A stretch of DNA of 64,000 bases from Bilabrum cf. latius. Its lineage: Eukaryota. The DNA lies in assembly GCA_965178125.1 (NCBI GenBank), contig OZ237768.1, forward strand, positions 558,001 through 622,000, given 5' to 3'. This document shows, piece after piece, positions 1 through 64,000 of this stretch. Position 1 is the first letter of the stretch; every line of letters begins with the position of its first letter. The position numbers and the translations under genes were made by a program. The notes beneath the pieces are model-generated. The model did not search any database, was not told the DNA's origin, and saw nothing but the letters and a program-made list of their open reading frames with translations.

Positions 1-885
1 GTTGGGCGTGCACCACCCTCCCCGCACCCGCTGGCCCTGCTGATGCGTCGTTGTCAGCGTCCCGAGGACGTGGCATACCCCTGGCGTGTCTCTGAATACT
101 ACGGGCAAAATAGCCTCGTATGCGTCGAAACCGTCTTTGCCCGCTGGACTGTGGGACCATAATAGGGTTCCGCTCGCAAGATCGAAGGCCTTGACGGTTC
201 TTGCCGCGCCTACGAAGACCGTGCCGCCTTCCACCAGAGGCGTGACCGCGTTGGTGATAAGAGGAGCGTAGCTACCGTCCGAACGGTCCCGAATGTTTGC
301 GATCTGTTGCTGCCAGAGAAGCTTGCCTTCGTTTTTGGAGACCTTGTATAGGACACAGCCAGCCACTGCAAGCACAGAGTCGCCAGCGTCAACCGGTGGA
401 GCGGCCGGATTATCTGGAATAGCCTCATTTCCCAGCGTCCAAATCTGCTCTCCCGACTTGGCATCCCAGGCAATAAGTGCAGAGTTTTGGTCCTAGCCGC
501 AAAGTGTGTAGACGGTACCGCCGTCTGTCGATAGCGTCGCTCCACTAGTTGGGCCGCATGCGCTCTTGAAGTCCTTCTCCCACTTGATCCGTCCAGACAC
601 AGGATCAAGCAAGAACAACGTGTCCGGCTTTAGATCATCATTCCAAGTGGTCACAGCCACCGAATCCGCGTCGATTGAAGGAATTGTAAGCGAGGGTCCA
701 AGCTTGACTTCCCACTGCTATTTTGGATCTGCAGTAAGTGCTCGCTCCTTGAACCGAAAAGCCATGGTGTTGTTTTTTCTCAGGTGTTCTGCACATGACG
801 AACCAATCAGATACGAGACAAGGACAGCCAAGACGTACGAATGGGTCAGGGTTTTGCTTGATTTCGCTACCGTGTTCAATCGCAT
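1..885 (-). CDS. Secreted PQQ-like (BamB-type) beta-propeller repeat protein, 3' end outside the window
   Basis: ATG at 885 gives a signal-peptide-like start (MRLNTVAKSSKTLTHSYVLAVLVSYLIGSSCA). Propeller blades follow: LFLLDPVSGRIKW, LIAWDAKSGEQIW, LYKVSKNEGKLLW, VKAFDLASGTLLW. In-frame TAG at 718-720 and 493-495 only. Not present in the ORF track. Confidence 0.7.
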
Positions 886-1157
886 GGTACCAATTGTTTG
901 GGCAAGTTCATCTGCAGCTGTTCATGGATTGCTGCAATGGTGAGAAAGCCAAAAACATTCCACCCGTGACGCCACTGGCACTCTTCATCTTCGGGAATTG
1001 GTACCAGCCAAAGCAGATTCTGCAGGAAGCGACATGCGTGGTGCTAGACTGTGTGTTGACACTCAATGAATTGATCCAGGCAAATATCAGCTGCTCACAA
1101 AACTATCATCGATAAGACCTGCTATGTATCCTCAATGCAGCGCTATCGCACTGGCAC

Positions 1158-2585: not shown

Positions 2586-4166
2586 TCATTTCATCGCCTC
2601 CTCCAGCACCCTCACGCACTCGTCATGCCCTCCCAACTGAGCTGCCTCCAGCGGACCCACTCTCCGCTCCACACCAGATGCTGCATCCGAAATAACACCC
2701 TACTTTACTAGCCCACCGGCCAGTTTACCCAGCCTCAGCCGTTTTGCCAGCTCTAGCGGCCTCCCTTCGCTCGCTGCCTGAAACACCATCCCAGCGTCCC
2801 TCTTGGCCTCTACTGCCCGCCTCCACCTGCACATGACCCAGCCCCGCTTCCAAGGGTCCAACCTGGCCACATCACGCATCATGCCAGCAACTCCCCTACA
2901 AAACCGGAACAAGAGCTTCAGGCAGCGGTAGGGGTCCCCACCCCCCTCGTACAGGGATCGGATCACGGACCTTGCGATCCTTGCCGCTGTCGGCTCTCCG
3001 CGCTCTCCCCCTTCCTCCTCCTCCTTCCTGCGGGCATCCAGTTTTTCTGGCTCCAGTTCATTCGGCTCCGGGCCACTTGGCTTCGGCATGTCACTGCTCT
3101 GGGCTTCCTGTCCTGCTGGGCTCCTGGGTTGGGGCGCTGCTCCCGGTCGGGCACCTGAGCCCGAGCACTTGCTTCCTGCTCGCTCAACCGTTCTCGCACC
3201 GGTTGCAGTACCCCGGGCCGCGCTAGGCTGCTTCTTCTTCTCTTCGTCTTCACTCGACCCATCCGTGGGGTCCATGCTTCGGTGCCTGGCCCCTTGCACG
3301 ATTGCGGTCCTGGACTTCTCGAAGCGCCGGCACACCTCCGGATGCTGGTAATCCTCAAATGGCACGCTACCCGCAGCCAGGAGCTCTGCCATACAGAGAA
3401 GCGCCCCACGCTGCCTGCGACCGACTTGGGACCGGGCGGTCTGTACGGCGAACCCTAGCGCCCTGGAGTCGTTCCTTTCCGACTCGGGGAGGAGTTCGAG
3501 CATGGCACGCACCACCGCGTGCCTGCCCGCCCTCGCGGCGTGCTGCAGCGGCGTCAACGCGAGAAGGCTGTCGTAGGGACGGAACTCGTCTTTCATGCTG
3601 TATCCATGCGTGATGAGTGCTCGCACCATGTCGGGGCTGCCGGCGTGGTGCAAGAGCTTCAGCTCCTTTATCTTGCCGTGCGTGCTCCACGGCCTGTCGA
3701 GCAGCACTGCGGCGCAATCCGCGTGTCCTTTGCTAACTGACTCCATTAGCAGCCTGGGCAAGGCTTTTGGAGGAGGATGAGTATCATTGCATAAACTAGA
3801 TGGATCATCCCGCAATATGTCGGAGGGTGTATTGCTGCTAGACTCGCGTTGTTTCGGATACCAGCGATCTAGGAACTTGCTCAGGACGCTTGACATCCCA
3901 TTCCTGCAAGCGAATCGCCATTCAAGATTGGGAAATCTGTGGTCATCAGATTTCTCCATAGGAGGAATGTCGCATCCCATGTCGAGCAGGAACTCTGATG
4001 CTGCGGAATTCGCATTCTCCACCGCAAGCAGCAGCGGTAGCCGGCCGATCCTATCTCGAGAATTAATGTGGTCCTGGATGTCGTGCTTCGCTCTCCAAGT
4101 TTCTAAATCTGCCACTGATCCAAATTCAGCAACATCGTGCAAAGTTAGTTGGTATGTTGATGCCAT
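2586..4166 (-). CDS. Ankyrin-repeat protein
   Basis: Ankyrin motifs GRLPLLLAVENANSAASEFLLDMG and TPLQHAARAGRHAVVRAML. Beyond TAG 2700-2702 the frame continues into a last repeat (GPLEAAQLGGHDECVRVLEEAMK) and ends at TGA 2586-2588. Confidence 0.8.
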
Positions 4167-4319
4167 TGTTTAATAATTAAGTATCCGGGATCTGGAAATC
4201 GAACATTCATCACTGGAGGTTCGTTGCATGCCAATCCAACCAAACCTCGCGACCGCCTCGTGGATAGACCTTGTCGAATCAAGTACCCGGACATTGGTAA
4301 ATTTACGCCTTACAGTACC

Positions 4320-7300
4320 ATGTCCGGTCGCTTACTTCTTCGAAGTCGCCTTGGCGTTTGCATAAATCGAGTGTTCCACAACAGCTCAGCACTCGGTTGT
4401 CTGAGCCGCGCTGTCCATCGTGTCGGTGCAAGGGCACCACGAATCGTATCGCGCCCTACCAGTAGTAGAGGGCAATAGATGCGCGCTACAACGCAGGCTG
4501 GTTCAGCCGGTCGAATGGTATCCATCGGTGATGTCCGGATGGAGATCGCTGATCAACACTAGGGCTCAAAGCTTGTGCCGTCTGGGTGGTTGCCCACGAA
4601 TCCAGAACAAGGTCTTTCGAGGGAAACACTATCCCATCTCCGATTCCTCATGCAGAAGCACTTGCTCGGCCAAGACGCTCTACTGCTCGGCCCGCCAGGG
4701 CCCGAGAGGTTCCGCCTCGCCATGGCCTTTTGCGAGCTCCTTGGACTGGAAGCGGAAGTGGTGCGCCTATCAAGAGACACCACGGAAAGCGATTTAAAGC
4801 AGCGAAGAGAGACCCTGGGAAGGGGTCACGCCACCTGGGCGGACCAGGCGCCGGTGCGAGCAGCCCTGCACGGGAGGGTCCTCATCGTCGACGGCCTGGA
4901 AAAAGCCGAAAGGAACGTTCTCCCGACCCTCAACAACCTCCTGGAGAACAGAGAAATGTCCCTCGAGGATGGGAGGATGCTGCTGGCACCAGACAGGTAC
5001 GACGCCATCGTCGGCCAGGGAACAACCGAAGACGGTGCTGCTCAGGGAAAACAGCCGGGGACAGACCGGCTGGCCCGCGTGTCCGATCGATTCCGGGTCA
5101 TTGGCCTGGCTTGCCCCGTGCCCCCTTACCCCGGCATGCCCCTGGATCCCCCCCTGAGGAGCAGGTTCCAGGCCAGGTACGTGGACCCGCTGCACGTGGC
5201 TGCGTCGGTGACCGGCATGGTGGGGAGCAGTGCCATGAATGGGGCCGCGACCGTGGCTGAGTCAGGTACAGCGGGTGCCACTGGTGAGTCAGCTGTGTCC
5301 GATGCAACCAGCAGTGTGACGAGTGAGGTGGAGCAGGCCATGACGGAGATCGCCGCATCCCTACACGCGTTGGAAGGGGCGGGGACGGGCGCGGGTTCTG
5401 GCGATGGGGGCGGTGGATCCGGATCCACCGGTGGATCTGGGGTCGGTGTGCCCCCGTGTCCCGCATCTCTGGTGTCCAGCGCGGGCGCCATTGCCCGCAG
5501 GTGGCCGGATGCGGCCAGGTCGCCCGATTTCATCGAGAGGTGTATAAGGCTGCTGTACCCCCACGAGGCGTTGCTGGGGGCGGGAGGGGGTGCGGCGGGC
5601 AGCGCCGTCAGGGGTACCGTGGAACGGTTAGGGATCGGATCAGGGATCGGATCGGATGGACTGCAGCCGCCGCAAGCCCACGGAGATGGGCATGGTGCCC
5701 CTAGGGGTACCGTGGTGCCTGCCACGGACGGATTCGAAACCGCGGCAACTGCGCGGCGCCTTTTGGTTCCGCAAGGCTGGCGCAGGGCGGCAAGTGACGC
5801 CACGCTGGCCTCTTGTGCCGGTTTGGATCTCTGCGTCCTGGGAGGCAAAGGCGGTGGCAAGTCCTCCTTCGTCGCCGCCCTCGGGGAGTCGCTGGGGTAC
5901 GGCCCTACTCAGACCCAGCTGGTGTCCATGCACGCAGAGATGTCTGCGAGAGACCTGTGGGCCACCAGGGAGGTCGACCACGAGGGACGAACTTTCTGGA
6001 AGGCTTCGCCGCTCGTGGATGCCGCGGTGAACGGACACTTGCTGGTCCTGGACGGGTGCCACAGGGTACCCGGTGAGGTGCTGGCAGCCGTCCTGGGACC
6101 GCTGACCCACGACAGGTTCGCGGTGCTGCCCGACGGGAGGGTCCTGTCGCACCAGGGGCAGCAATAGGAGCAGTCGGGCGATGTGACGAGTGATGACGGT
6201 GTGATGAGTGCTGAAGGTGTGACGAGTGACGTCGGCGTGCTCCGTGCGCACCCGGACTTCCGAATCGTGCTCGTAGGTGACGGCCCGACCGCGAACGAAT
6301 CCACCAGTGGATCCAACTCGGTGAGCCATCCCGATGCAACCAGCGGTTCCGGCTCATCTTCTAATTCCCGTGGAAATCGCAAGCAGCGCCAGTCCTCTTC
6401 CAGCCCCGCTGGCCTCGTGCAAGAAGAGGGCGTATCGCCCTGGCTTCACCCCGAGATACTTGGCAGGATGGCCGTGGTAAGGCTGCCCGCCATCGAGGCG
6501 AGCGACCAGCTCGAGCAGGTGCTCCGGACCGCGTGTCCCGGTGCCTCTTCTGAGGTTGCAACCGGGGTGGCGAGGCTGGGACGGGAGCTGAGGGCGGCAG
6601 CGGCGCTCGAATTCCCGACGGATGACGCCGCGCGGCAGCAGCTGAGGGTGAGCCTTCGTGCCCTCGTTGCCATGTGCCGGCGTGTGAGCGCCATGGTGGC
6701 GTCTGATGGTGTGACGAGTGATGAGGGTGTGACGAGTGCGGACGTGGTATCCCGTGGGATGGCGAGGGAGCTCTCTGCGGCGTGCAGCGACACCCTGCTG
6801 CTGCCATTCTTGCCACCCGCTGTGGGCAAGTCCGTGGCGGCTGCCCTGGAACGCATCACTGGGGCCAAGGCTCCTGCCGGTGCAGCCGGTGAGGTATCGC
6901 TACCTGTGGGTGGCAATGATGCAGGGAGTACTGCTACGCCGAAGATCGCAAATGGTGGCAAAACCGCCCTCTTTCCGGTAAGCCGGGGCAGGACCGCCGC
7001 GAGCTCCAGCCTAAGCATAACGACAACCTCCGCTGACGATTGGTGCATCGCACTGCCGCGCAAGCAGGGAACAGACCCGGCACTGGTCCCGGACGTCGAT
7101 TTCGTGGACACTGCCTCGCACACGCGCGTCCTGGGCGGCCTCGCCGCCGCCATCGCGGGCGGGTCCGAGATGCTTCTCCTGATCGGCAACCAAGGGACCG
7201 GCAAGAACAGGGTTGCTGACAGGCTGTGCGGCCTGCTCGGCTGGGAGAGGGAATACATGCAGCTGCACAGGGACACAACGGTGGCACAGCTGCTGTCCCA

Positions 7301-10300
7301 GCCCACGCTAGAGGACGGTAAGCTTGACTGGCAGGACTCTCCTCTGGTCAGGGCGGCTATTGAGGGTCGCTGCTGCGTGCTAGACGAGGCGGACAAGGCG
7401 CCCACGGACGTGCTTGCCCTGATTTCGTCTCTGGCAGACGGGCAGCTGAGGCTGCCTGATGGCAGGATGCTGCTGAGGACAATCGATGCAGCAACAGCCA
7501 CAGAAGCAGGTTCTGATTCGGTCACCGCTGGCAGCGAACTGTCAACGAGCGGAGCCGGCGATTCAGCTGTCACCGTGCCAATCCACCCGGACTTCCGACT
7601 GCTCGTGCTGGCCAACCGGCCGGGCTTTCCGTTCCTGGGTAACGCATTCTACGAAGAAGTAGGTGCCGCATTGACGTCATTCGTGGTGCCAGCGCTAGAC
7701 GAAGAATCGGAGCTGGCGGTGGTGAAAGCGGCGGCGCCCGACGTCGACCCAGCGCTGCTGCGGTCCATCTGCGGCGCGTTTGCGGAGCTCCGAGAGCTCA
7801 ACGACCGGGGCAAGATGCAGTATCCGTTCAGTCTGAGGGAGGCCGTGGCGGTGGGCAGGCACCTGCATCGGTTTCCAAGCGATGGTGCAGCCGCTGCGTT
7901 GTCAAATGTTGTGGCATTTGACGCCTGCGACCCTGCCTCTGCCCGCACCATCGCGGATGTGTTTGCCAGCAGGGGCATTTCAGTGGACCCTGCCGGCCTG
8001 AATGGGGACCCTTTGAGGGACGGCGGCGCGGGCGTGGGACATGAAGTGAGGGTATCTCCTGCCATTCCTGTGGGCTCTGGTGGACCGGCCGGGAGTGATG
8101 AGGCCGTTGTGGAGTTGCCGGCTGGTGAGCTAAGGCTGGAGATGCTTAGAGGAAATGGTGGTGCTGATGGTGCTGGTGATGCAGGGCGCAGGTGAGTGTG
8201 AGTTATCTGGATATTTGCTTGGGGTGGTGGGATATGCTTAAGTGTGCTATGGAGTGGTCGCGTTGTGGGAACCCTTCCTGTCCTTTGAGAGATTCAAATA
8301 TCTCCAATCCCTCCCATTCCCTCCCCCTTCCTTCCTTTTCTCTTGCAGGCAAGGTGTTCCGCTCGCAGTGCGCTCGCCGGCCTCCATCCAGGCCTGGCAG
8401 CTGCCCAACGGGGCCGCGCAATGCAAGAGAGGCAGGGAGTTTCGCATACAGCAGGGCAGGCTGAGAACGTTCACTGAGGTGCTTGGAACCTGGCGGATTG
8501 CAGAGGGCAAGGAACTTGATGCGGATGAGCCCGGGTTAGACAGCAAGGGTAAGGACAAGACGAGAGGGAGACAGCGACGCCGACAATCCCAGAGTCGGTC
8601 AGGGATGAAGGAAGAGGAAGAAGGCCAGGAGACGGTCCAGTCGGTGGCCGGCGTGACCAGACACATGCTACTGCAAAGGGGCAATGGATAGCAGCAGCAG
8701 ACTAGGGGTATGCCACCCGCCGTGGATGTTGTCCCGCTGGCAGGAGACACGGCATTTGCCACGGTGGGGCCTGCCCTCAGGTTGGTAGTCCTTCAGGGCC
8801 TCGTGGACAGGGGTGACAGCTACCAGGGTCATCGAGTTGGGTCATCGAATGATAGCGCCACGCTTGCATCCCAAGGAGTCTGTCTATCCAACGACCGGTC
8901 CATCACGAGCATCGACCTCACGCACGCGCTGTACCCAGCGGACTATGGCGGGCTTGGCTCGCACCCCATTGATGGTGGCGGGTTCTGGGCCAGGCCAGTG
9001 CACCCAGGCACTTCGGCCGTCTGCGGGCTGCCTGCAGTTACCGGCCTAGCGGGGATCGAACCTGGGGCGCCACGTCTGCGGGCAGATGCAGGAGCCAACC
9101 CGATTGCTGTAGCGCAAGAGCGGGGTGAGGTGGCTGCGGTGGTGGTGCCGGGCATCCAGAAACTGCTGCTGGTGGCCAGCAACGGGGGTCTGGAGCCCGG
9201 CTACATGCATGCTGATAGGGCTGCTGGCAATGGCGGCGGCGCTGGGGCAAATCCCACGATCGCCGCAGCTGACTTACCCAGCTTCACTGCTCCGGACGAT
9301 GCCATGGTTCAGTGCCTGGGATTGACCGATGGCGGTGATTCGCCGGGAATCAACAAGTACCAGTCCACCGGTGGACTGATGGCATCCTTCCGGCTCATGG
9401 CTGGAGGGGGCAGGCAGCGGGAAGTGGATCCTTCGCAGCTGCAGTCGTGGGGCGTTGCTGCCACGATGGCGGTTCAATGGCCCAATCAAGGCGGAGCAAG
9501 TAGTGCTGATAGTGATCATCAGAGCGAAGCGAACGAAGCTAGCTCTAAGGACGGGAGTGTGTGGGCCAGGCACATGGTCCTGACTCACAGGAAGGGAGGC
9601 AGGGAAGTCGCGTATGTGACGTCAGCTGACGTGGGAGCGGGACTCAGGGGCAGAAGCGAGGCGGAATGGGTGGGGATACCGGGCGTGGGTGATTTCATCC
9701 AAGAATGGGAGATTGAAATTTCGAGTGAGATCGGTCGCGGCGTGACTGCAGGCATAGAGGCAATCGACACGGATGGGATCGGGACTGTAGCTCTTCGGAT
9801 CGTCGGGGCAGACTCGGAGACCGGGGTGCGTGTGGGCCACGTATCACTGCAATGCAATGCATCGTTGGGAGATCGCCACGACATTGCATGGATCGTGCGT
9901 CGGGTCGTGCAGATAGGTGCAGGCCGCGACTCAGACGGTTCGTCCTCTTTGGATGTGGCAAGCGGGGTCCTGCCAAGCATGGAGCAGGGCCATTCCACTG
10001 GCAACCCTGGCAGTCCGACCATATCAGTGCCAGCATCAGTGGGGATGAAGCGGCCCCACGACGAGAAAGAGAACAAGGGCGAAGGTAACAAGGAAACCGA
10101 TTCGCCCGATATGTGGGAGGGCATCGGGGACGGTGACCAGGTACTCTCTATCATGTACACCAGTGGATCACGCAGCAATGGAGAAGGCTCGTCAATTGCT
10201 GATGGTGAAGCTGGCAATGCTGCTGCTGGCAGCATGCTCACCGCACTAGTTGCCAGGAGAAGGCCCACTGTCAACCAGTCTGCCAGCAGCGGCACGCATC

Positions 10301-12180
10301 TGCAAGGGGACTCGAAGAGGGAACTACCCGCTGATTTGAAGCCCAGACCGGGCGGTGTACTGCCTGTTGTAGGCAAATCTGGGGGCGCAAATTCCGCCAG
10401 TATTGCGCTCCATCAGGTCCGTCTCCAGGTCCTCGATGCGAACGCTGCTGCCGCTACCCCTCCCATTGCCGACGATGCCCTGACTGGTGCGACCATGGAC
10501 GATACGGGCGCGCTGCAAGTGCTACCAGGGGGATCCACCGCTATCATTGCGCCCCATTCATGTGCAGCGCACGGTGGTGCAAGCGCAGTCACCATGTTCA
10601 GTCCGGAGCATGGTCTCCTCCGCACCGTCGGACTGCCCGCCCGCGGCTGCACGCTCATCCCAGTCGGCACGGGTGTGGCGAGTGCGCGTACAGTGGAGGC
10701 GCCCTCTCTGATTGCCAGTCCTCTCATCCTGGCCCAGCCCAGCAGGCAGCTGCTTCTCGCCTTCAGTCCTGGCGGCCTTGTGCAGGCCCTGCAGGTAGAC
10801 CCACTGGCGCTGCACGAGAGCGAGAGGGCCTGGAGGAGACTGGTCGGTCTGCCATCCGGGGAACAAGGGAGCGATCAAAGCGAGGATGGAACTGGCGATC
10901 AAGGCGAAGAGCGGGGCACAAAGAGCCTGAGACTGAGCATCGAAGGAGGACAGAGTACTCTGGGCGGCAAGACCATCCAGCAGGCCTAGGCGAACGGCGG
11001 CATCCCCAACTCGTCGCCGCCACCTCTGACCGGACCCAAGCACGGGAAAGAAGATCCGAGCAACGCACCGCACGTAGGTGGCAATACATGGGCGGGCGGC
11101 ACGGGCGGGTCCAACACAGCGGGGCTGGGCGGCGTGGGCGGGCCTTACCGCCTGGACAAAGGCCACGGGGTACCCAAGCCAGTGTCAGATGAGGTCAAGG
11201 CAGCCGTGCCCGAGGAGATCAGGAGGCGAGCTAGGGCCGCAGCGGAGCAAGGGCTCAAGGACAGGCTCCGTGCCATTGGGATGGATCCAAAGGTGGCCAA
11301 AGAGTACATCGCCATGCGGTCCAAGATTGAGGAGCCCGCCTCCCAGCTCAGGGCTCTGATCCGATCCCTTCCCTCGGGGAGCAAAGAGAGGGTCTGGAAG
11401 AAGCTGCAGCAGACGGGGGAGCTGGACGAGTCCAGGTTGGTGGACGGTCTCGCGGGCGACAAGCTGGTCTTCAAGCGACGGACCTCTGCGCAGCCTCTGC
11501 CCGGTGTCCCCATGCCCGGCAAGCGCAGGATCCGCATCGTGGTGGACGTGTCTGGCAGCATGTACAGGTTCAATGGGGAGGATGGGAGGCTTGTGCGGCT
11601 GCTGGAGTCGGTCTGCATGGTGATGGAGGCGCTGGATGCCACGTCAGGCGGATCCGGTGGGTCCGCAGGAGGTGGCACAAGCGGCCCCGGTGGCCTAGCC
11701 TGGAGCATATCAGGCCACAGCGGCGACTCGGATCGGATCGAGTTCGTGGAGGAGGGCGAGTACCCCGAGGACGAGGCAGACAGGATGAGGGTGCTGCAGC
11801 GCATGCTGGCGCATTCCCAGTTCTGCCAGTCGGGTGATCACACCGTGCCCGCCACCCAGCGAGCCACTCGTGAGGTTACCGAGGCGTGCGCCAGGGACGG
11901 CGCCACTGGGCTGGTGCTTGTAGTGAGCGATGCAAACCTGAGGCGGTACGGGATCCCGGCGAGTGCGCTTGCATCGGCCATGGCAGCGCCATCGATTGCG
12001 GGCGGATAGGGCGGGAAGGTGAGCACGCACTGCGTGATGATCGGGCAGCTGGGTCGGGAGGCAGAGATGCTGGCGCAGGCCTTGCCGGCTGGTCGGGCGC
12101 ATGTGTGCATGGAGACGGCTGGGCTGGTGGAGGTGTTCAGGGACGTGCTGCGGCAGGAGATCGAGTCGGTCGGGCGGTGA
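4320..12180 (+). CDS. VWA8: VWA8-like mitochondrial AAA+ ATPase with C-terminal VWA domain, 2 exons (intron 8192-8348)
   Basis: Arg-rich presequence, then VWA8 motifs: MQKHLLGQDALLLGPPG, LSRDTTESDLKQRRE, GLEKAERNVLPTLNNLLENREM, LLLIGNQGTGKN, YMQLHRDTTV, PKHGKEDPSNAPHVGGNTWAGGTGGSNTAGLGG, VVDVSGSMYRFNG, LVVSDANLRRYGI. In-frame TAG at 4476, 4560, 6165, 8689, 10987 and 12007. Ends TGA. Confidence 0.92.
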
Positions 12181-30500: not shown

Positions 30501-30510
30501 TGCGGATTGA
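21596..30510 (+). CDS. Giant protein with two Ulp1/SENP-type (peptidase C48) domains
   Basis: ATG 21596. In-frame intron 22782-22876, and a second intron probably spanning the minisatellite. One frame then runs from about 25084 to TGA 30510, broken only by TAG. Domain 1: GWVKDQCVHF, LLIPINTNKSHW, YDSL, QQQDNYVDCGVF, FTQADIPGIRRRI. Domain 2: FVFIPMVRKGHFSLAILCN, VVLDSI, PQQPNGVDCGAYV. Confidence 0.75.
23262..25070. repeat. Tandem minisatellite, about 45 units of 40 bp and 37 bp
   Basis: Consensus GGGCGCCTCAACTGCCTCGAGTGCCTCGGATGGGGAAGCA (40 bp), with variants ending GGTTTGGAAGCA and a 37-bp form ending AGGTGTGGAA. No unique spacers. Confidence 0.97.
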
Positions 30511-47419: not shown

Positions 47420-47598
47420 ACGGATTATCATTGCATGCTTTCATTTAAATTATTTTCTGGTCCTGGAGGGAGGGGTCGCTCCAAGTAGGCCAGGATTCGC
47501 TGGAACTGTCGTTGCGACCAAGTCTTCTACACCATGACGGTCGCAACAGAAATTCTGCGCTACGACAATGCACAGCTTTTCATATTCGCCAGGGAGCA

Positions 47599-53500: not shown

Positions 53501-55201
53501 GGTGGGTCTGGTGCTGGAGCTGGTGGATGGCGAGAGCCTCGCTTCATCGATGCGATCTCGAGGCGGGGGTCGGTAGCGCATGCGGGAGGGAGCAGTTCGT
53601 GTGGTGGCTCGTCAGCTTGCGTGTACGCTGTGCCATCTGCACGAGGCAGGGGTGGTGCACAGGGACGTAAAGCCGTCCAACATTGTGCTGGATTCGGCCG
53701 GATGCAGCCGGCTCGTTGACTTTGGGCTATCCGTAGCTGTCGGTTCGAAATTAACCAGCCGAGCTGACGCAGGTGCCTCTATGCACGAGCTCCTGCGTAG
53801 AGCTTAGAATCATCAGTGGGAAGGAGTTGAGCTGGACAACCATGAAGACCTGCGCATGGCGATGCCTGCCTTTCCGGCTTTGGAAGGGCCACGCTCAAAT
53901 GGAGACCGAGGGGACAACGCGTGCAGCAGTATTCTGCTGGTCGCCAGTGACAAGGACACAGGAAAATAGCAGTGGGTAGCCGCTGTCGCCGCATCTGTGG
54001 AGCAGGCGCTGCAGTCTCCCGCTGTATCGGGAGCTTTGAGCCGAGCAGCCTCTACCCGGTCAGCTATGCAGATGATTGTGTCAGACCCGCTGATGTACGA
54101 CGTGGTTGTGGTCGCAGCGGATGGGTCCGAATCTGCGTCCAATTCAGTAAGTAACCCCGCTGGTGGTGGGAGTGCACAAAGTCCGGACTAGAGTGCGAAA
54201 TACCGCGATCGAGGCGTCTCCAAGCTGGCTTTACTATTGGCAAGTCAGCAGTCCAGATAGTCAGTAGCTAGTGCGCCCCAAGTTAAGAGCACGAAGCTTG
54301 TGGTGCTGTCTGGCCCGACGACTGGCTCACCTTTTGACCCTGATTCTGGAGATAGAGATGCAGGTACCTGGACGTTGCAATCATGCAGTCTCAATGACCG
54401 CAATGATGTGGAACTCCATGCAACATCAGCATGCAAGGCACCGACTGATGTTGGCCCAGCGCTTATGGCGTATGTTATGGATGGGTCAAGGGGTGTCTCG
54501 ACTCTTCCTGAAGCGGAGCCGGAGACAGGAATACTCGGTGATGATTCGTGTGATCGCCCACTAGTTTCGGCGTCTCATGCACGGGCGTTCACATCGCTGT
54601 CCAGCTGGGCGCAAGCTTGCGCGCGATAGCAAAAGGCTCCAAGCTCAGACGAGAGCCCAGCTTTGCACTCCGTCGGGTCTAAACATGACCATGCGGCGGT
54701 TCAGTACCAAGGTCAGCCAAGCGACATGGGCCTTGGGGCGGCTAGCATTCCACCAACACGCGGGGATCGACCGCCCACCGGCAAACGTGGCGACGGCGGG
54801 GTGCTAGTCTACCGCGAGAAGCAGCCCTTCGTGGCAGGCATAGCAGGCACTCCTCTCTTCATGGCACCTGAGCTCTTCAAGCACCAGGGGCAGCGGGCCA
54901 GCGACTACTGGTCCATGGGCGTGACGCTGTTCTGGCTGCTGGCTGGCAGGATGCCGTTCACAGGGCCGACCAAGCAGGCCCAGCTGGACGCAGCCAAGCG
55001 CGGCATTGTGAGCTGGCGGCTGCTGCCAGCTGGCTTGAGTCCGGAGTGCATCGACACTTTGAGGGGTCTTCTGGAGGTGGATGTGGAAGCGAGGTATGAC
55101 GCGAGAGTTCTAGCGGTGCACCCGTGGCTGTAGGCGACGCTCGTGACAGCTGCAGGTGCTGGCATGACGTCTAATGATGCGCGCGGGATTGCTGACCGTT
55201 C

Positions 55202-55266
<65 letters not shown>

Positions 55267-56117
55267 GTTCAACCAAAGGGAGGCAGCACGGGCCTGCCAC
55301 GGACAGAATCTTGCCAAGGCACCACTGGGCCAAAAATGACCCTTTCACTCCTGCTCAATCCTTGGCGGGTCAGCCTGGAGCAGTATCCGCTGTAATAGGG
55401 ACAATCAAGGACCCTCAAGGACATCATGTACCGCTGTCAGAGCCGAACCTATGGATCGTGCCGGTGATTCCGGGTCTAGAACGCGTTGGATCCTCCGTCG
55501 CTGAACTCGAGTGGATCGGATCTATAGTGCAGGAGTGGAGTCTCTCTTCTGTCCCGCAGCACGCCAAGGACTCGTAGAAGGTGTCCAAATTCAGCAAGCG
55601 GGTCAAAATGCAGGCGCGAATCGATGCAAAAATGGCGGATGTACGAGCTGTGCTGTCCGTGTGGTGCAGACGACAAATGCTGAGGCACAGGGATGGATAG
55701 ATTCTGAAGAGGGTGGGCAAAGCCGCCTCCAGCTTTCTGCCGCCGTCCATATGGGATGCCGCCAAGCGTGATCTAGAGGTTGCGGGCGTGTCAGCCAGGC
55801 GGGCCGCAGGCATGCTTGTTCAAGTGTCTCAACATGTAGACGATTACGCAAGCACGATCAGTGGAGATGCGCAGGAGCTGCAGCCCAACTCCAACGTAGC
55901 TAAACGTGGACAAAACGCTAGCGCATACATTGGAACTAGCCAAACAAGGGGTACAGTAGCGACTGCAGCAGGAGCAGTCGTCCCGAGGTCGAACCTGATG
56001 TCAATTGGGTATGGTCAGGCATCTTTGCCCAGCGTGGTCGAGTCCGACGAGCACGTGACCAATACGCACTCTGGCTCGGAAACTACGGGGCCCGAGGCAG
56101 CGCAAGGGAGCGATTGA
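47599..56117 (+). CDS. About 2,810-aa membrane protein: TM / cyclase-like / TM / cyclase-like / split Ser/Thr kinase (paralog A; intron 48236-48321)
   Basis: 17 track ORFs from 48303 to 56117 are in one frame; each ends in TAG except the last, which ends TGA. TM clusters at about 48960-49340 and 51420-51930. Cyclase-like motifs near 50140-50230 and 52340-52750. Kinase motifs LGEGGFARV, VALK, HRDVKPSN, DFG, GTPLFMAPE and DYWSMG. Confidence 0.78.
55203..55262. repeat. (GCT)20 microsatellite encoding poly-Ala
   Basis: Perfect trinucleotide run, in frame just after the kinase domain of paralog A. Confidence 0.95.
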
Positions 56118-57200: not shown

Positions 57201-60200
57201 TTACTCGCCAGCACCGGGTCCTGTACCATCCGGATCCTCCTCGTCTTCGAGGCTACCCCCCTCGGGCATCCACTCGGCGGTTTCGGCCACACTGGGCAAG
57301 CCAGCTCTCCCCTTACCAAGTGCAGACCAGCCAGACCTGCGGCTCATCTCCCTAGCCTCGGAGGCCTCATCGACCACTGATGCCAGGTCTGCCTCGCTGC
57401 TCGCCCCGATCCCAACTACAACGTCACCAGAGAAGGAATACCTGTCCTTCCGCACAGAGCTGGCGAGTTGGGCCGGTCTTGGCGAGTCAGTGGCACCACG
57501 ATAAAGCTCTCTAAACCGGAATGACTGGTCCTTGCATCTGGCAAGCATGATTTCAGCCTTCTCGCCTGATACACCGACCCGAGCGAGGTCAGCCTTAGCT
57601 GCCGACCGTCTGCTCACAAGCACGGCCTGGCGACCTGCCGATGAAGAATACACCCGTTTCTCTTGTGGCCCCAACTGCGCTGCAGTCGTATCTAGACGGA
57701 CTATGTTTCGACGAGCGAAAACAGCCAGGACAGCCATGACGTCAAGTTTCTTTGCCCTGAGTCGAGCCTGCTCCTAGATCCGCTGGCTGTGTCGCTTGGC
57801 TCGACTCCGAACTCTCGCCTTGCCAACGATGCTCGACAGCCAGTGCAGCTCATCGTTCTCGTCGCTGCCTGCCCGACTGGTCGGTGCCGATACCATGGTG
57901 CAGCCGTCCAGTGGAACAAGCTGGTCGTGAATCCAATCTCTTGCAAGCGGCGAGGCAGTCGGCACTCCTCGAATCAATCCAGCCTCCGGGTCGGTTACGT
58001 CGAGGCCATTGCCTGCATCACCTTCCAACCCCGAACTCCTGAAATCGCTCGTGTTGGAGGATTCGGTCCCGACCAATCGCGATGATTCGTTCGACTGCTC
58101 GCCATCTCGGCGTCCTTGTCTCTCTGCCAGCCGCTGCTTGCCGTTTGCATCGCGTGATGCTTTCTTTACGACGTGTGCGGGAAGCTATCTCCAGAGTTTG
58201 GAGCCGCTCGCATCCACGAACGGGTCATCGAGCGACCAGCGAACGGATTGCAACGACCGCTGCACAGCCCAGGCCGCATCACTTGAATGAGCAGGCGATG
58301 CAGCCGGATCATGGGGCGCCTTCATGTTCTCCAGCACACGGCGTGCTCCGAGTGGGTCTCGAGGCAGCAGCCACGGGTGCACCGCTAGCACTCTCGCGTC
58401 ATACCTCGCTTCCACATCCACCTCCAGAAGACCCCTCAAAGTGTCGATGCACTCCGGGCTCAAGCCAGCTGGCAGCAGCCGCCAGCTCACAATGCCGCGC
58501 TTGGCTGCGTCCAGCTGGGCCTGCTTGGTCGGCCCTGTGAACGGCATCCTGCCAGCCAGCAGCCAGAACAGTGTCACGCCCATGGACCAGTAGTCGCTGG
58601 CCCGCTGCCCCTGGTGCTTGAAGAGCTCAGGGGCCATGAAGAGAGGAGTGCCTGCGATGCCAGCCACGAAGGGCTGCTTCTCGCGGTAGACTAGCACGGC
58701 TTTGTTTGATGTCATCGTTCGCTGCTTGATTTTGGATCTCTCCGCCGCATTGCCATCGGTTGCAACGGCAGCTGCTCTAGACATCGTTCTGGAGGCACTA
58801 CGCGCCCATTCAGAAACAGCGGCGTGTAGTGATCCTGTATCGGGGTTTGCTTCAGAATCTCTTTCAGCGGCTCCCTGTGAGCCAGTCTGCGATTCACTCC
58901 GCGAATACAATTCATCAAGTTGCTCAGCCCAAGCCGTCCGCTGACGTGGCAGCTCTGCATCAGGGCCAGCAGAACCCCCCGGGTGGCCGTGGCACGCGGT
59001 CGTACCTGATCGCAGTTTTTGCTGTCGAGAGCTGTTGAGGACTGGTCGTCTCATTGCGGTGGAATAAGCACGGACGCGACTAGTTCTAGACTCTGCAGCT
59101 GCCTGCGTCTGCACGCCATCACCAATCAACACAGCTGGCGAGCGCCTCGTGGATATTCCTTTGGCATTATTGGGTTCAGATATGGGTCTGCTTCCCGCCC
59201 CTAAATCAGATTCCGAATGATCCCGTCGTGCCTCGTCATTCTGCTCGACGCGTTGAAGCGAGTCCATGTTACTCGGGGACCAAGTTGTCACACGGACTGT
59301 CGATTTGCTCTGCTGCGCTACTGCGGCCTGAGCGGTGCCTGTACTGGAAGCTACCAAGTCGGGCTTAGCCTGTCGAGAATCAGCGAGAACGATCCTTGCA
59401 AATTCTTGCACGGACATCAGTGTAGCCTATTCCACATTGTCGGCCGATATCAATTTTCCTTGCTCTGCTGCACTCGTCACGATGTCCTCGTCAAAGTGAG
59501 GGGCGGCTGGCCCATCGGTCGCACAATCAGGATCGGCATCGATATTGGTGCCATCCGTGCCGATCCTCGTGGACAACCTCTATACCTGCAGTCTTAGAGT
59601 CGGGTCAGGCTCCGACGCAAGCAACGCTTGCGAGCGTGGCAGCAGTCGCGGCACATCAAATGCGGTCCCAGCACCTGACGCTGGGCCAGCTCCGCCTCTA
59701 GCCCCGTCAGGGTGAGCGTGACCTACCCCGCAATCGACGAGATAGGCGACACTTCGGGGCAGCAAATGGCTCAAATGCTTCTCTGGAGATGCTTTGGATT
59801 GATCTGGCCTGCGCTTGTCGTGGCTAGGGAATGTCACATCTTCAAGAGCAGCCTGGATCAGCTAAGATCGGTTGCGACTGGTCTTCTCTCTTTGACGAGT
59901 ATGGCCCATACGCTAGGTTCCGCTGCTCGCAGCCGATGCAGATTGTGATCCCCCATGCTCGGCGGTACCCCTCAGCACAACTATGGTGTCGAACAAGTCA
60001 CGCTCAGTGGAAAGCAGTGCAGCTGCCGCCTGCATGCCTCGCACCACTTGCACCGCACACATGCTACCGCTAGATCCCACACCCTTCTCAAGCTCATCCT
60101 ATAGCGCCTTACTGGTCCGCCAAGGTATATCATCTGCCGCTAAGCGTGAACGTCTGGTTTGATAAACTACGAGCAATACTGAATGGTACCGCGCGCTAGA

Positions 60201-63200
60201 CTTTCGAGCGAGCACCACCGGGCGGCGAATGCCACCAGGACCCAGCGGAGAGAAGGCAGGCAAGACCAGATGGAACTCGTTGTGGGTGGTGGCATCCTGC
60301 ACCGTCCAGTCACCAGCCGCACTGGATGTTCGCTTTCGCCTTTTGGAGCTTCGATTTCGACTGTGGCCTGCCTTCGTCTTCTACTTGGAGGCATGCTCGA
60401 AAGCAGCTCCATTCCCATCTGAGCCGTGACCCGAGCTTGTCGATAGTCCAAGGTCCACCAGACGACTGTATCCGGCCGGATCCAGCACAATGTTCGACGG
60501 CTTCACGTCCCTGTGCACCACCCCTGCCTCGTGCAAATGGCACAGCGTACACGCAAGCTGACGAGCCACCACACGCACTGCACTCTCCCGCATGCGCCAA
60601 CGACCCCCGCCTCGAGATCGCATCGTTGAAGCGAGGCTCTCGCCATCCACCAGCTCCAGCACCAGACCCACCTCACCCTCGCCCAGCACCACGCCCTCCA
60701 GCCGGCACACGCCCGGCACGCCGTGGACAGCGCACCGCATCAGGGCCAGGATCTCGCCACGAACCACGTCAGCCTTCAGCGATGCATGCTACTCGGAGTT
60801 GCCAGCCGAAAAGATGTGTGACGAGTGATATTCCTATCGGGATCTACCAGTGGATCGCCTGCTGATCTTGAGCGCAACCTTACGTCCCGTGGGCACATGT
60901 ACGGCCAGGTAGACCCTGGCGAACCCGCCCTAGCCGAGTACCTTCAAGCGCCGAAAGTCCTGCATATGGAAGCGAGGCAACTCTCGTCCAGTTTGTCTGT
61001 CGTGGTGTCTGTCGACTACAGCTGCACTCGTCGGAAGACCATCCACTGTTAAGCGGTGGCCCGGTCCTCGAACCACAATGACCACCTGGAAGCTGCTTGG
61101 GGACAAAGTGCTGCTAGTAGAGCGGCTTGCAGCAGCAGGCTTGCTGCCCACGATCAGCTTAACGTAAGCGGGAAGTGCACTTCCGCAAGCAGCCACAATC
61201 TTTTCTCCAGTGACAGTTTCGAAGCATAGGCTCTCAAGCCGATTGCCATCTTCACCAGCACTCTCACAGTTACTTTGTCGTGACTTGCATGCACGAATGC
61301 TTTGCCTCACCCAGGCCTCAAGCCGGATGTCAAGCCTTTCATTCTCAGTCTTAGCCGCGCGCGCCTAGTCGGAGCTTGCGCCTAAGGCGACGCGCAGTTG
61401 CTTTCGCCACTTTTGAAACCAGGTATTGGTGCTGATAGACACCATGCCAATAGGCAAGCAGTTCACGTCACTGATGTGGCCGTTGTGCTGCACATCAGCT
61501 GTACACACCAAACCGAGGCCTTGCTCCGGCAAAGCAGACGCTTGCAGGCTACTGTGGGTGACTCCGAGTGCAGCCCAATCAAGCAGATGGACCTGGCGGG
61601 TCCATCGGAGCTTTGCTCGCCCGAAGCGTGCGGCTAGATTCAAATGCTACAAAGTTGTTGCTACTTTGGTGGACTTGAAATCAAAAGATGCGCCGGACAC
61701 TTCCGAATCGGCCATGGTGTGTGAAGCCTAAACGCAAGCCTGGTCTGTGCCAGCCGTAGCTCCGTGGATCTATTGATTGGCCGTTTGTGGAGCAGGTGAT
61801 AGAAATGCAGCGAGAAGAGGCAGCCTGTCCCGCAATATGCCCTCGAGTGCTCGAGGCAATCCGACGAGCGACCCCTTCATGCCCATGCCTACGGCTGTGC
61901 CATTGATCCGGTGCATCGACCTGGCAATCCTTTGGCTCGCCTCGAGTGGCCTCAGCTGGCTGTTTCTGTCCACATCCTCGTACAGTATCTTAGCCGGGCC
62001 AGTGCCGATCCATGTTGCTTGCACCGGACCGGCTGCCAAGCCTATCTGAGGCCGCAGCTGTATGCTCATGGTACGCAGCTGGGATGTGCAGGTACTGGCG
62101 AGATCTACAGCTGCCATGATAGTAGCAGTCAGCATTCTGACGGATGGTCGCATGACGCTTGAGGTGCCACCCGACAATCGTCCATCTTCCGGACGGACAC
62201 CCATAGCTCCCCTGGGCAACCGAGTTGGCTATTGGCGAAACCATGCAAGCTTGAACGTTCCAGCGCTACCCTTGATCCTTACCGCTCTATACTTGGCGCA
62301 TACTGCATCCACCACGGCCCCAATCCTGCGGTGCAGGCCAATCCCGGCGATGGGCCCGGCGAAGTCAGCGATCTTGTCGTAGCCGTGCAGGATGAGTGTG
62401 AGCACGATCGAGTTGCCGAGGTCGACTGCAGCCGCTGACCGCGCCAGTGATTCCGTCGATCTTGCTACTTCAGATGGCAGTTCGTTTGGCAGCAAAAGTC
62501 CAAGCTGACTGAGTGCGTCCCGACTTAACGAATCGCTACTGGCTGACCGTGTCGGTGTCGTTGCGTCCAGCTACCTCTAGTGGATGACTGCTGCAGGCAT
62601 GATGGCTGCTGCTGCAGACTTGAGCTACTGCTTGCTGGCCTGAACAAGCTCGCTGTACGCAACCAGGGTGCTCCTGATGCGGAGCACTTGCTCCTGGAGC
62701 GTCTGGGTGTCAACGATACGACGCGACAGTATCATTACCATGTACAGAGCTCCCGTGAAGATCGCCACGATACCCCCAAGCGACACGTCAGCGGGGTCAC
62801 TATCTGATCCCAGCACTAGGGAGCACTTATCGAGTCTGGTGTTCTAAGAAAGGCCAACTGCCTCTCGGATCCACACGTACAATCCGACGGGAGTGCTGAG
62901 TGCGACCAACACTCCGACAGTCAAGATCACGGGCCAGTTCCCATCGCATACGTGGAGCACGCCCACCAGCAGCTGGATTGCAACCAGTACCTGAGGCGCT
63001 TGATTCGACTGGCCCAGAATTCCTGCACACGACCCTCTAAAGGCCTAGAAGAGGAAGAGAAACTGGTACAGCACGTGCGAAATGTGAGCAGCTCCGTATG
63101 TATATAACGCACAGGCAGCACTGACCCTTTCCTACCGCATGGTCCACACAGCTCCAGCAACGCTCATGGAAAGGCCGCATGCGAGCAGCGGCAAAAATTT

Positions 63201-64000
63201 CAAAAGTATCAACAAACATGCTTGTGATTCATCCCAGGACGCTAGTCCAGATGCAACCTCGAGATTGAAAGCCTTCGCCCATTCAGTCATTCCGTTCTGC
63301 AGAAGTGCCACGCCCGAGAGCAGCAAGAGAAGACTCGAGCCAGCCGTGGTGCCTACAATTCCTCTGGCGTCGTCTTTGCGATCTAGGCTAGGTAGAACAT
63401 GCGCAGCGACTGACCCGCATCCCTCCGTCTCAGCTACACTAAGCTATTCCGCTTGCGGATAGCAGTGCCCTGCAAACGCCCCCATGTTCAGCGTGCCTGC
63501 ACCAATGTGGGCTTTACCAAGCACTCGTTGGAGCCACTTCGGCATGTCCTTTCCCGCCGTATCCCTAAATTTGCTTGGCGTAGGATAGACAGATTCATGA
63601 AGGTTGCTTACCACGGTGGCGGACGGCAGCAACGTGTCGTCAGGGCCCCCAGATAGATGCTGACCAGACGCGATCGCAGCAATTAGCACGTCGACTGCAC
63701 GCTCAATGGACAAGGCCAGCGGCTCTTTCGCTGTGAGAGTGATATCGTCATCGCATCGTAGAGGAAGAAACACGACCCTGCCAGCTGCTGCCTGAGCATC
63801 GTCACCTGTAGTGTGCGTACTAGAGTCGCTGACTTTGCCCGAGTCGGATGCGGTCCCACGCTCCAGCGGCCTGTCTCCGGTGGTCTGTAACAGATAAGGC
63901 ATATTGGGATCGTCGCTGGAGCTTTTTTTGGCGCGGCTGCTTTGAGGATAAGGGTGCCGGGCGGCACTGGATCTACCTGCATCCACAAGGCGGCCAGTTG
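57201..64000 (-). CDS. Paralog B of the TM / cyclase-like / split-kinase protein, 5' end outside the window
   Basis: 13 track ORFs from 63444..63986 down to 57201..57737 share one frame, joined by TAG where checked, and end at TAA 57201. Shares near-identical cyclase-like and kinase blocks with paralog A. Has DLG in place of DFG. Confidence 0.78.

What the first reader, a model, noticed from the sequence alone, without database searches (positions are those of the whole stretch)
1..64000. Variant nuclear genetic code: UAG is a sense codon while UAA remains a stop
Seen: well over 60 in-frame TAGs interrupt nearly every gene, and homology or domain structure continues in the same frame after them. 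Examples are VWA8 (6 TAGs), the last ankyrin repeat, and a TAG between the His/Asp and Cys motifs of a Ulp1 domain. I found no exonic TAA, TGA or frameshift. Located gene ends are TGA (1158, 2586, 12180, 14128, 15455, 30510, 33318, 47419, 56117) or TAA (33250, 41013, 41137, 57201), never TAG. Established: UAA and UAG are usually reassigned together in eukaryotes, and uncoupled reassignment is rare (reported in the fornicate Iotanema, a rhizarian and a few ciliates). Inference: this GC-rich, non-ciliate-looking genome may be an independent, possibly undescribed case.
Basis: partly seen in the sequence, partly recalled or inferred. Interest (0 to 1): 0.96.

Follow-up and report, generated by a model that had tools for sequence, protein, structure and literature searches.

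The report
Nuclear code: TAG read as glutamine
This GC-rich protist genome uses the stop codon TAG as an ordinary codon, most likely for glutamine, while TAA and TGA still end genes; this split of the two related stop codons is known from only a handful of eukaryote lineages.

Summary
In 15,181 curated codons from 12 genes there are 101 in-frame TAG, 0 TAA and 0 TGA. The two other frames of the same DNA hold 224 TAG, 106 TAA and 550 TGA. Contigs from three runs of two other studies carry nine GT..AG splice joints that the DNA run lacks. They keep TAG unchanged at 10 of 12 TAG sites in three spliced genes.

TAG most likely means glutamine:
- A syntenic metagenome relative, which has in-frame TAGs of its own, has CAG at 5 of 7 window TAG sites (chance 2.6e-6).
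- One TAG sits in a sulfatase column that is Q in 114 of 150 homologues.

TAA still terminates:
- There are no in-frame TAA where about 35 would be expected.
- Two spliced transcripts end 33 and 39 bases after a TAA.
- An orthologue and a paralogue end with TGA at matching places.

All 14 gene ends are TGA (10) or TAA (4).

Its closest VWA8 is from the bicosoecid Cafeteria, which is a weak lead. Its stop usage differs from Iotanema and the rhizarian exLh. The tRNA and eRF1 could not be examined. Verdict: real, and a new member of a known kind.

The parts
1..921 (-). PQQ-like beta-propeller gene fragment that runs off the window. It has 2 in-frame TAG.
   Evidence: ORF 1..921, odd=2; PF13360 PQQ_2, E 1.9e-18.
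2586..4169 (-). Ankyrin-repeat gene. One in-frame TAG (first base 2702 on the minus strand), followed by a further repeat. Stop is TGA at 2586.
4161..12180 (+). VWA8-like AAA+ ATPase in two ORFs joined by a candidate intron at 8192-8348 (GTGAGT..TTGCAG). TAGs at 4560, 6165, 8689, 10987 and 12007, plus one at 4473 that may lie upstream of the start. Stop is TGA at 12180.
   Evidence: The intron is predicted only; there is no RNA evidence here.
12494..14128 (+). RNase_T/ERI1-type exonuclease gene. Its only TAG in the ORF lies far upstream of the domain and may be outside the coding sequence. Stop is TGA.
15455..21162 (-). Two overlapping long ORFs (841 and 1102 aa) with no family match, probably one gene. 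They hold 6 and 12 in-frame TAG, including a TAG-TAG pair at 17581/17578. Stop is TGA at 15455.
25402..30510 (+). Large gene with a Ulp1/C48 protease domain. It has 9 in-frame TAG (26167, 26659, 27832, 28750, 29026, 29410, 29455, 29530, 29569). Stop is TGA.
31796..33250 (+). Iduronate-2-sulfatase-like C-terminal part. TAG 32855 lies in the conserved 'SQYPRCP' column and TAG 32894 in a variable column. Stop is TAA at 33250.
33318..37541 (-). Ser/Thr protein kinase gene with 5 in-frame TAG, all in its low-complexity N-terminal half. Stop is TGA.
38333..41013 (+). THOC5-like gene. Introns at 38417-38507 and 38714-38828 are seen as joints in RNA contigs. There are 4 in-frame TAG (38637, 38664, 39817, 40501). 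Stop is TAA at 41011-41013, and the RNA contig ends at 41046.
41137..44651 (-). PAN-domain secreted enzyme-like gene. Introns at 42208-42321, 42466-42671 and 43503-43643 are seen in RNA contigs. There are 7 in-frame TAG (44462, 44453, 43163, 43160, 43082, 42884, 42863). Stop is TAA at 41137-41139, and the RNA contig ends at 41098.
44777..47419 (+). Arylsulfatase-like gene. Introns at 44914-45052, 45307-45435, 45543-45738 and 46224-46320 are seen in RNA contigs. There is 1 in-frame TAG (46592). Stop is TGA, and RNA contigs end at 47456/47466.
48267..56117 (+). Giant membrane protein with a kinase domain, in one 2616-codon frame. It has 28-29 in-frame TAG. Stop is TGA.
57201..63998 (-). Paralogue of the previous gene; its 5' end runs off the window. 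It has 23 in-frame TAG. Stop is TAA at the position where the paralogue has TGA.

Best explanation
The window is nuclear DNA of a GC-rich, gene-dense protist with few introns. In its genetic code UAG is an ordinary sense codon for glutamine, making up about 14% of Gln codons here. UGA and UAA remain the terminators.

Shown:
- UAG stands in frame in nearly every gene.
- It is not spliced out or edited in mRNA.
- It aligns with Gln codons and residues in relatives.
- At least one environmental relative shares the reading.
- UAA and UGA end genes.

Inferred, not shown: the mechanism is the usual one for such codes. That would be a tRNA-Gln with anticodon CUA, one change away from tRNA-Gln(CUG), which pairs with UAG but not UAA. 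It would work together with an eRF1 that no longer recognises UAG efficiently.
For: TAG is sense:
- ORF lengths jump only when TAG is read through.
- 101 in-frame TAG against 0 TAA and 0 TGA in 15,181 codons, while the off-frames hold 224, 106 and 550.
- Pfam domains lie on both sides of TAGs.

TAG is present in mRNA:
- Contigs of runs X5, X6 and X7 (studies P2 and P3) carry 9 joints with GT..AG on the gene's strand. DNA run X1 lacks them.
- The spliced forms give single ORFs of 856, 1050 and 704 codons holding 4, 7 and 1 TAG after the start codon.
- Pieces with 0 other letters cover 10 of these 12 TAGs.

TAG means Gln:
- Syntenic relative L001 (59-68% amino-acid identity) has CAG at 5 of 7 window TAG sites, with ACG and GAA at the other two.
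- Standard Gln codons of the window are Q in L001 at 19 of 41 sites; the chance of 5 or more Q in 7 is 2.6e-6.
- The column of TAG 32855 is Q in 114 of 150 homologues.
- Q is the commonest partner (6 of 36) at TAG sites between the two paralogues.
- Q is the modal residue at 2 of 5 VWA8 sites.

The clade shares the code: L001 has 4 in-frame TAG of its own in the same gene.

TAA is a stop:
- 0 in-frame TAA where about 35 are expected from the CAA:CAG ratio (P about 3e-16).
- The THOC5-like and PAN-domain genes (38333-41013, 41137-44651) end at TAA, and their RNA contigs stop 33 and 39 nt later. The next in-frame TGA lies 124 and 151 codons on.
- L001's homologue of the PAN-domain gene ends with TGA two residues after the motif that precedes the window's TAA by four residues.
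- The two giant kinase paralogues (48267-56117, 57201-63998) align to their ends, one with TGA and the other with TAA.
Against: - No tRNA gene of any kind lies in the window and no genome is held. The CUA tRNA and eRF1 are therefore untested.
- Amino-acid identity rests on comparison only and on few informative sites: 7 orthologous sites and 1 conserved column.
- The second sulfatase TAG (32894) lies in a variable column: Q in 10 of 150, gaps in 41.
- Three of 5 VWA8 TAG sites have modal K, modal L or a gap.
- None of L001's own 4 TAGs aligns with a window Gln; the window has AAA, GAC, AGA and ACC there.
- 30 of 36 paralogue partners are not Gln.
- The tool only guesses that runs X5-X7 are RNA, and rates X5 'probably DNA'. 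I take them as RNA because of the spliced joints.
- Contig ends are not mapped poly(A) sites.
- Only 32 of 471 laid pieces and 40 of 66 difference rows were shown.
- With 14 gene ends, occasional use of UAG as a terminator cannot be excluded.
Confidence: 0.85

Rival explanations
1. UAG is a sense codon but codes for another amino acid: Glu, Leu, Ser, Lys, Tyr or Trp, as in other UAG-reassigned lineages.
For: - Two of 7 orthologous sites are not Gln (ACG Thr, GAA Glu).
- Paralogue partners include S 5, T 5, A 4, E 3 and L 2 of 36.
- The modal residue is K at one VWA8 site and L at another.
Against: - 5 of 7 orthologous sites are CAG, with 0 Leu and 0 Ser.
- The conserved column is Q in 114 of 150, against E 6, L 2, S 1 and K 1.
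- The non-Q VWA8 columns are variable or badly aligned.
Confidence: 0.07
2. Both UAA and UAG are reassigned to Gln, as in ciliate code 6, some ulvophytes and Hexamita. UAA is simply rare because the genome is GC-rich, and UGA is the only true stop.
For: - This coupled change is the commonest variant, by passages of PMC5304391 and PMC11687900.
- GC3 is 68% and A-ending codons are disfavoured.
Against: - CAA is still used 157 times against 440 CAG. About 35 TAA would therefore be expected beside 99 TAG, and 0 are seen.
- 4 of 14 genes end at TAA.
- For two of these, the spliced transcript contig ends 33 and 39 nt later, with no in-frame TGA for 124 and 151 codons.
- Orthologue and paralogue ends coincide with the TAA.
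Confidence: 0.03
3. UAG has two meanings that depend on context, sense inside genes and stop at some gene ends, as in Condylostoma or Blastocrithidia.
For: Only 14 gene ends could be examined, and the ORFs were defined by reading through TAG, so a minority of UAG terminators would be missed.
Against: - 0 of 14 ends need a TAG.
- In every gene the last TAG is followed by homology, a paralogue match or RNA cover.
- In-frame TAG is as common as off-frame TAG: 101 against a mean of 112 per frame.
Confidence: 0.05
4. There is no code change. The TAGs would be assembly errors, RNA-edited sites, intronic, or marks of pseudogenes.
For: Nothing beyond prior expectation.
Against: - Contigs of three runs from two other studies agree with the window letter for letter over the TAGs, and are spliced around them rather than at them.
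- Only TAG, never TAA or TGA, interrupts 15,181 codons.
- A relative keeps the same frames open and has TAGs of its own.
Confidence: 0.01

Closest known systems
Iotanema spirale (Fornicata) nuclear code: UAG = Gln, UAA and UGA are stops (Panek et al. 2017, PMC5304391; passages read)
   Same: The codon meanings are the same as inferred here. UAG is never seen as a terminator. The expected mechanism is tRNA-Gln(CUA) plus an altered eRF1.
   Different: - Iotanema ends genes with UAA 104 times and UGA 15 times. The window has TGA 10 and TAA 4 (Fisher P 6e-6).
- The window is 56-65% GC.
- Its VWA8 groups with the stramenopile Cafeteria, not with metamonads.
- Iotanema is known from a transcriptome only, according to that paper.
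UAG = Gln (UAA kept as stop) in two phyllopharyngean ciliate lineages and Protocruzia tuzeti (McGowan et al. 2024, PMC11687900; passages read)
   Same: The reassignment is the same and is uncoupled from UAA.
   Different: - Those are ciliates.
- Here the DNA run has a contig of 212 kb, and introns are 91-206 nt with GT..AG ends.
- GC is about 60%, and no ciliate is among the 120 listed VWA8 hits.
- That ciliate macronuclear genomes look otherwise is recalled, not tested here.
Rhizaria sp. exLh: UAG = Leu, UAA and UGA are stops (PMC5304391)
   Same: UAG alone is reassigned, in a non-ciliate protist.
   Different: - Leu is not supported here: 0 of 7 orthologous sites and 2 of 150 in the conserved column.
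- exLh stops are UAA 56 and UGA 15 (P 5e-4).
Scotinosphaera (green alga): UAG = Ser, UAA is a stop (as cited in PMC11687900)
   Same: UAG alone is reassigned.
   Different: Ser is not supported here: 0 of 7 orthologous sites and 1 of 150 in the conserved column. No green-plant sequences are among the listed VWA8 hits.
Coupled UAR = Gln codes (many ciliates, some Ulvophyceae, Hexamita, Streblomastix, Amoeboaphelidium; listed in PMC11687900 and PMC5304391)
   Same: A stop codon becomes glutamine, probably through a suppressor-like tRNA-Gln.
   Different: UAA is not a sense codon here: 0 observed against about 35 expected, and 4 genes end at TAA.

Membership tests
Nuclear code with UAG = Gln and UAA/UGA = stop (Iotanema type; the number 'table 15' is recalled) | In-frame UAG in conserved protein-coding genes, present in mature mRNA | tested here: met
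   101 in-frame TAG in 15,181 codons. Spliced RNA contigs keep TAG at 10 of 12 sites in three genes with 0 differences.
Nuclear code with UAG = Gln and UAA/UGA = stop (Iotanema type; the number 'table 15' is recalled) | UAG positions correspond to glutamine in homologues | tested here: met
   CAG at 5 of 7 sites in orthologue L001 (chance 2.6e-6). Q in 114 of 150 at the conserved sulfatase column. Other sites are uninformative. There is no proteomic proof.
Nuclear code with UAG = Gln and UAA/UGA = stop (Iotanema type; the number 'table 15' is recalled) | UAA still terminates translation | tested here: met
   0 in-frame TAA against about 35 expected. 4 of 14 genes end at TAA. RNA contigs end 33 and 39 nt after two of them. 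Orthologue and paralogue ends coincide.
Nuclear code with UAG = Gln and UAA/UGA = stop (Iotanema type; the number 'table 15' is recalled) | UGA still terminates translation | tested here: met
   0 in-frame TGA against 550 in the two off-frames. 10 of 14 genes end at TGA. The arylsulfatase-like gene's RNA contigs end 37-47 nt after its TGA.
Nuclear code with UAG = Gln and UAA/UGA = stop (Iotanema type; the number 'table 15' is recalled) | UAG is not used as a terminator | tested here: inconclusive
   0 of 14 gene ends are TAG. The sample is small and the ORFs were defined by reading through TAG.
Nuclear code with UAG = Gln and UAA/UGA = stop (Iotanema type; the number 'table 15' is recalled) | A tRNA-Gln gene with anticodon CUA | not testable with these tools
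   No tRNA gene in the window and no genome held.
Nuclear code with UAG = Gln and UAA/UGA = stop (Iotanema type; the number 'table 15' is recalled) | eRF1 N-domain changes that weaken UAG recognition (the GTS motif change in Iotanema, by a passage of PMC9161772) | not testable with these tools
   eRF1 is not in the window and no genome is held.
Coupled UAR = Gln code (ciliate code 6 type) | In-frame UAA sense codons beside UAG | tested here: not met
   0 TAA in 15,181 in-frame codons. The expected number was about 35.
UAG = Leu code (Rhizaria sp. exLh type) | UAG positions correspond to leucine | tested here: not met
   0 of 7 orthologous sites. 2 of 150 in the conserved column. 2 of 36 paralogue partners.
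Context-dependent stop/sense codes (Condylostoma, Blastocrithidia) | The same codon is sense inside genes and a terminator at gene ends | tested here: inconclusive
   There is no TAG terminator among 14 ends, but the sample is too small to exclude rare use.

The most novel reading that the evidence does not exclude
This is an independent and so far undescribed origin of the uncoupled UAG-to-Gln code. It would lie in a clade of GC-rich heterotrophic protists allied to bicosoecid stramenopiles, with at least one environmental relative. If so, it would be the first variant nuclear code in stramenopiles. It would also offer a genome-level system, with DNA and RNA data already public, for asking how eRF1 and a CUA tRNA separate UAG from UAA.
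Probability: 0.45. Interest if true: 0.8.

Novelty: new member of a known kind. Interest (0 to 1): 0.72.

Why it matters
UAA and UAG almost always change meaning together. The few lineages that split them show that eRF1 and the tRNA pool can tell the two codons apart.

A further non-ciliate case would add an independent replicate for testing which eRF1 changes and which tRNA-Gln(CUA) origin go with the split. This one comes with long genomic contigs, matching transcript data and an environmental relative that shares the reading.

There is also a practical point. Standard gene callers will shatter nearly every gene of this organism and its relatives. The predicted protein of the metagenome relative is already cut (452 aa). 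Databases therefore under-represent the clade until the correct code is applied.

Tried and rejected
- Whole genome: none is held. Genome-wide code inference and searches for tRNA-CUA, eRF1 and 18S were therefore impossible.
- tRNA and Rfam scans of the window found nothing.
- Earlier notes of this scan had nothing on this genome or on look-alike stretches. A word search returned only phage and bacterial TAG cases.
- Sequencing runs: no listed holder is on record as RNA. I treat X5-X7 as RNA-derived only because of their spliced joints.
- A search for shorter relatives of the giant kinase gene (48267-56117) gave only generic kinases, 19 hits at 26-44% identity over 3-9% of the query. This added no TAG sites.
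- The PDB match of the sulfatase to human iduronate-2-sulfatase gave an ambiguous local alignment at the TAG. The 150-homologue alignment settled it.
- The five assessable VWA8 TAG sites lie in variable or gapped columns.
- A first alignment of the VWA8 C-half used a wrong frame and is void. It was redone.
- Two alignments timed out and were rerun with faster settings.
- Lineage: the best VWA8 hit is labelled Symbiodinium sp. KB8, but it sits in one 90% cluster with Cafeteria proteins. The dinoflagellate lead was dropped in favour of a weak bicosoecid lead.
- Considered and rejected: a RIP-like or pseudogene origin of the TAGs, because no TAA or TGA accompanies them.


Full report
**What the window is.** The window is 56-65% GC. 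It carries eukaryotic genes:
- a VWA8-like AAA+ ATPase;
- Ulp1/C48, THOC5 and ERI1-type exonuclease genes;
- two sulfatases;
- Ser/Thr kinases;
- ankyrin and PAN domain genes.

No whole genome is held for it. It contains no tRNA or other Rfam RNA gene.

**Check of the observation.**
- Under the standard code the longest stop-to-stop ORF is 969 aa.
- With TAG read through, ORFs of 2617, 2416, 2266, 1408, 1345, 1313 and 1103 aa appear.
- Reading TAA through changes almost nothing.
- Reading TGA through lengthens many frames (longest 1219 aa). This is what a GC-rich sequence gives in any frame, so ORF length alone is not the argument.
- The cleaner test uses 17 coding segments of 12 genes (15,181 codons). 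The reading frame holds 101 TAG, 0 TAA and 0 TGA. The two other frames of the same DNA hold 224 TAG, 106 TAA and 550 TGA.
- TAG is therefore about as common in frame as out of frame, while the other two stop codons are excluded completely.

**Transcripts.** One search found four DNA-like runs of one sample that hold the stretch completely. It also found three runs from two other studies that hold 46-78% of its words. Laid on 36700-56200, the contigs of those three runs show nine joints whose skipped parts begin GT and end AG on the strand of the gene. The DNA run lacks these joints and is colinear over 36700-50156. The tool only guesses these runs to be RNA, and rates one of them 'probably DNA'. 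The joints are my reason to treat their contigs as transcript-derived.

Joining the exons gives single ORFs of 856, 1050 and 704 codons:

| Gene | Window coordinates | In-frame TAG after the start codon |
|---|---|---|
| THOC5-like | 38333-41013 | 4 |
| PAN-domain enzyme-like | 41137-44651 | 7 |
| Arylsulfatase-like | 44777-47419 | 1 |

- Listed contig pieces with no differing letter cover 10 of these 12 TAGs.
- The other two lie in an exon bridged by joints, but that piece is not among the 32 of 471 rows shown.
- The TAGs are therefore not spliced out, not edited, and not errors of one assembly.
- The 'other letter' rows shown all lie in the giant kinase gene (48267-56117). Two of them match differences to its paralogue (57201-63998) exactly, including that paralogue's TAG at 60932. 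They are cross-laid paralogue contigs.

**Which amino acid.** Two relatives of the PAN-domain gene were found among proteins. A metagenome scan returned the contig of the closer one, L001 (4346 nt, 56% GC).
- L001 is syntenic. It holds the head of the arylsulfatase homologue (52 of 57 residues identical) next to the PAN-gene homologue (59-68% identity).
- At the seven window TAG sites L001 has CAG five times, ACG once and GAA once.
- For calibration, ordinary Gln codons of the window are Q in L001 at 19 of 41 sites. Q is 4.2% of the aligned L001 residues, so 5 or more Q in 7 has a chance of 2.6e-6.
- L001 has four in-frame TAGs of its own in this gene, opposite window AAA, GAC, AGA and ACC. 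The relative reads TAG as sense too, but these four sites say nothing about the residue.
- An exhaustive profile-free search with the iduronate-sulfatase-like exon gave 150 best homologues. In their alignment the column of TAG 32855 (motif SQYPRCP) reads Q 114, V 16, E 6, M 4, T 4, L 2, K 1, A 1, S 1 and gap 1. The column of TAG 32894 is variable.
- Between the two giant paralogues, 36 TAG sites face another codon. Q is the commonest partner (6), then S 5, T 5, A 4, E 3 and L 2.
- Five VWA8 TAG sites fall in variable columns, with modal K, Q, L, gap and Q.
- Taken together, Gln is well supported, and Leu and Ser (the meanings in exLh and Scotinosphaera) are not. The informative sites are few and there is no peptide evidence.

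**UAA and UGA.**
- In a 14,952-codon set the counts are CAG 440, CAA 157 and TAG 99. If TAA were a Gln codon used as CAA is relative to CAG, about 35 would be expected. None is seen (Poisson P about 3e-16).
- Four genes end at TAA and ten at TGA.
- For the convergent THOC5-like and PAN-domain genes, the spliced contigs end 33 and 39 nt after the TAA. The next in-frame TGA would be 124 and 151 codons further on, inside the neighbouring gene.
- L001's homologue ends with TGA within two residues of the same position.
- The two giant paralogues align to their very ends, one closing with TGA and the other with TAA.
- No gene needs TAG as its terminator. With 14 ends, and ORFs defined by read-through, rare use cannot be excluded.

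**Mechanism.** By analogy with the cases analysed in PMC5304391 (passages), the expected machinery has two parts. One is a tRNA-Gln(CUA) derived from tRNA-Gln(CUG), which pairs with UAG but not UAA. The other is an eRF1 with weakened UAG recognition. Neither could be looked for here. TAG makes up about 14% of Gln codons. It is denser in the fast-evolving giant genes (about 10-11 per 1000 codons) than in VWA8 (about 2 per 1000).

**Who is it.** This is unresolved.
- The best VWA8 hit is labelled Symbiodinium sp. KB8, but it shares a 90% cluster with Cafeteria roenbergensis/burkhardae proteins.
- It is 47% identical to the window over 965 columns, against 41-43% for oomycetes, dinoflagellates and Capsaspora.
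- It is sister to the window in a FastTree with local support 1.0.
- This is one gene and a weak lead towards bicosoecid-like stramenopiles.
- The giant kinase gene has no close relative among 5.8 billion clustered proteins, so the organism itself seems absent from that collection.
- Stop usage (TGA 10, TAA 4) differs from Iotanema (UGA 15, UAA 104) and exLh (UGA 15, UAA 56), by passages of PMC5304391. Fisher P is 6e-6 and 5e-4.
- Long contigs, 91-206-nt GT..AG introns and about 60% GC do not look like a ciliate. That comparison is from recall.

**Literature.** I read passages of four papers:
- PMC5304391: exLh has UAG=Leu; Iotanema has UAG=Gln.
- PMC9161772: Iotanema's relatives use the standard code; there is an eRF1 GTS change.
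- PMC11687900: the list of UAG-only cases, including Scotinosphaera (UAG=Ser), Protocruzia tuzeti and phyllopharyngeans.
- PMC12152300 and PMC12574857: only organellar codes of stramenopiles are mentioned.

Five searches listed no report of a UAG reassignment in a stramenopile or bicosoecid nucleus, or in a GC-rich non-ciliate other than those above. The library lacks most subscription journals, and supplements were not seen.

**Verdict.** The finding is real. The code is of the known Iotanema type (UAG=Gln; UAA and UGA are stops). The lineage appears to be a further, possibly undescribed, bearer of it, and an environmental relative shares the reading.

Noticed in passing
window 23254-25068: A 40-bp minisatellite of about 46 copies (90% matches) lies just upstream of the Ulp1-domain gene. 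Read through, it forms the first ~600 'codons' of the long TAG-sense ORF, but it is probably not coding.
   Followed up: partly
window 30769-31260: A 171-bp unit repeated 2.9 times lies inside an ORF (30737-31510, + strand). From recall, its translation looks like RCC1-type repeats. It was not scanned against Pfam.
   Followed up: no
window 41013-41137: Two convergent genes end only 123 nt apart. Their transcript contigs stop 51 nt from each other (41046 and 41098), which implies 3' UTRs of about 33-39 nt and a very compact genome.
   Followed up: partly
window 43844-43878: A short GAG/GAC-rich stretch in the PAN-domain gene attracts many unrelated contigs in all four runs (depth 5-20 times that of its neighbours, with many loose ends and false long joints). 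It is a common low-complexity acidic repeat in this organism's genes.
   Followed up: no
window 48267-56117 and 57201-63998: Two convergent giant paralogues (more than 2200 codons each) combine multi-pass membrane regions, a kinase domain split by a long insert, and stretches that are nearly identical between the copies. They have no close relative in the protein collection.
   Followed up: partly
L001 1-4346 (metagenome contig): An environmental relative keeps the head-to-head arrangement of the arylsulfatase and PAN-domain genes and has in-frame TAGs of its own. Its deposited protein prediction (452 aa) is truncated as a result.
   Followed up: yes
protein P0022 (public record labelled Symbiodinium sp. 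KB8): This VWA8 protein sits in one 90%-identity cluster with Cafeteria roenbergensis/burkhardae proteins of the same length. The Symbiodinium label probably reflects a contaminant contig in that assembly.
   Followed up: partly
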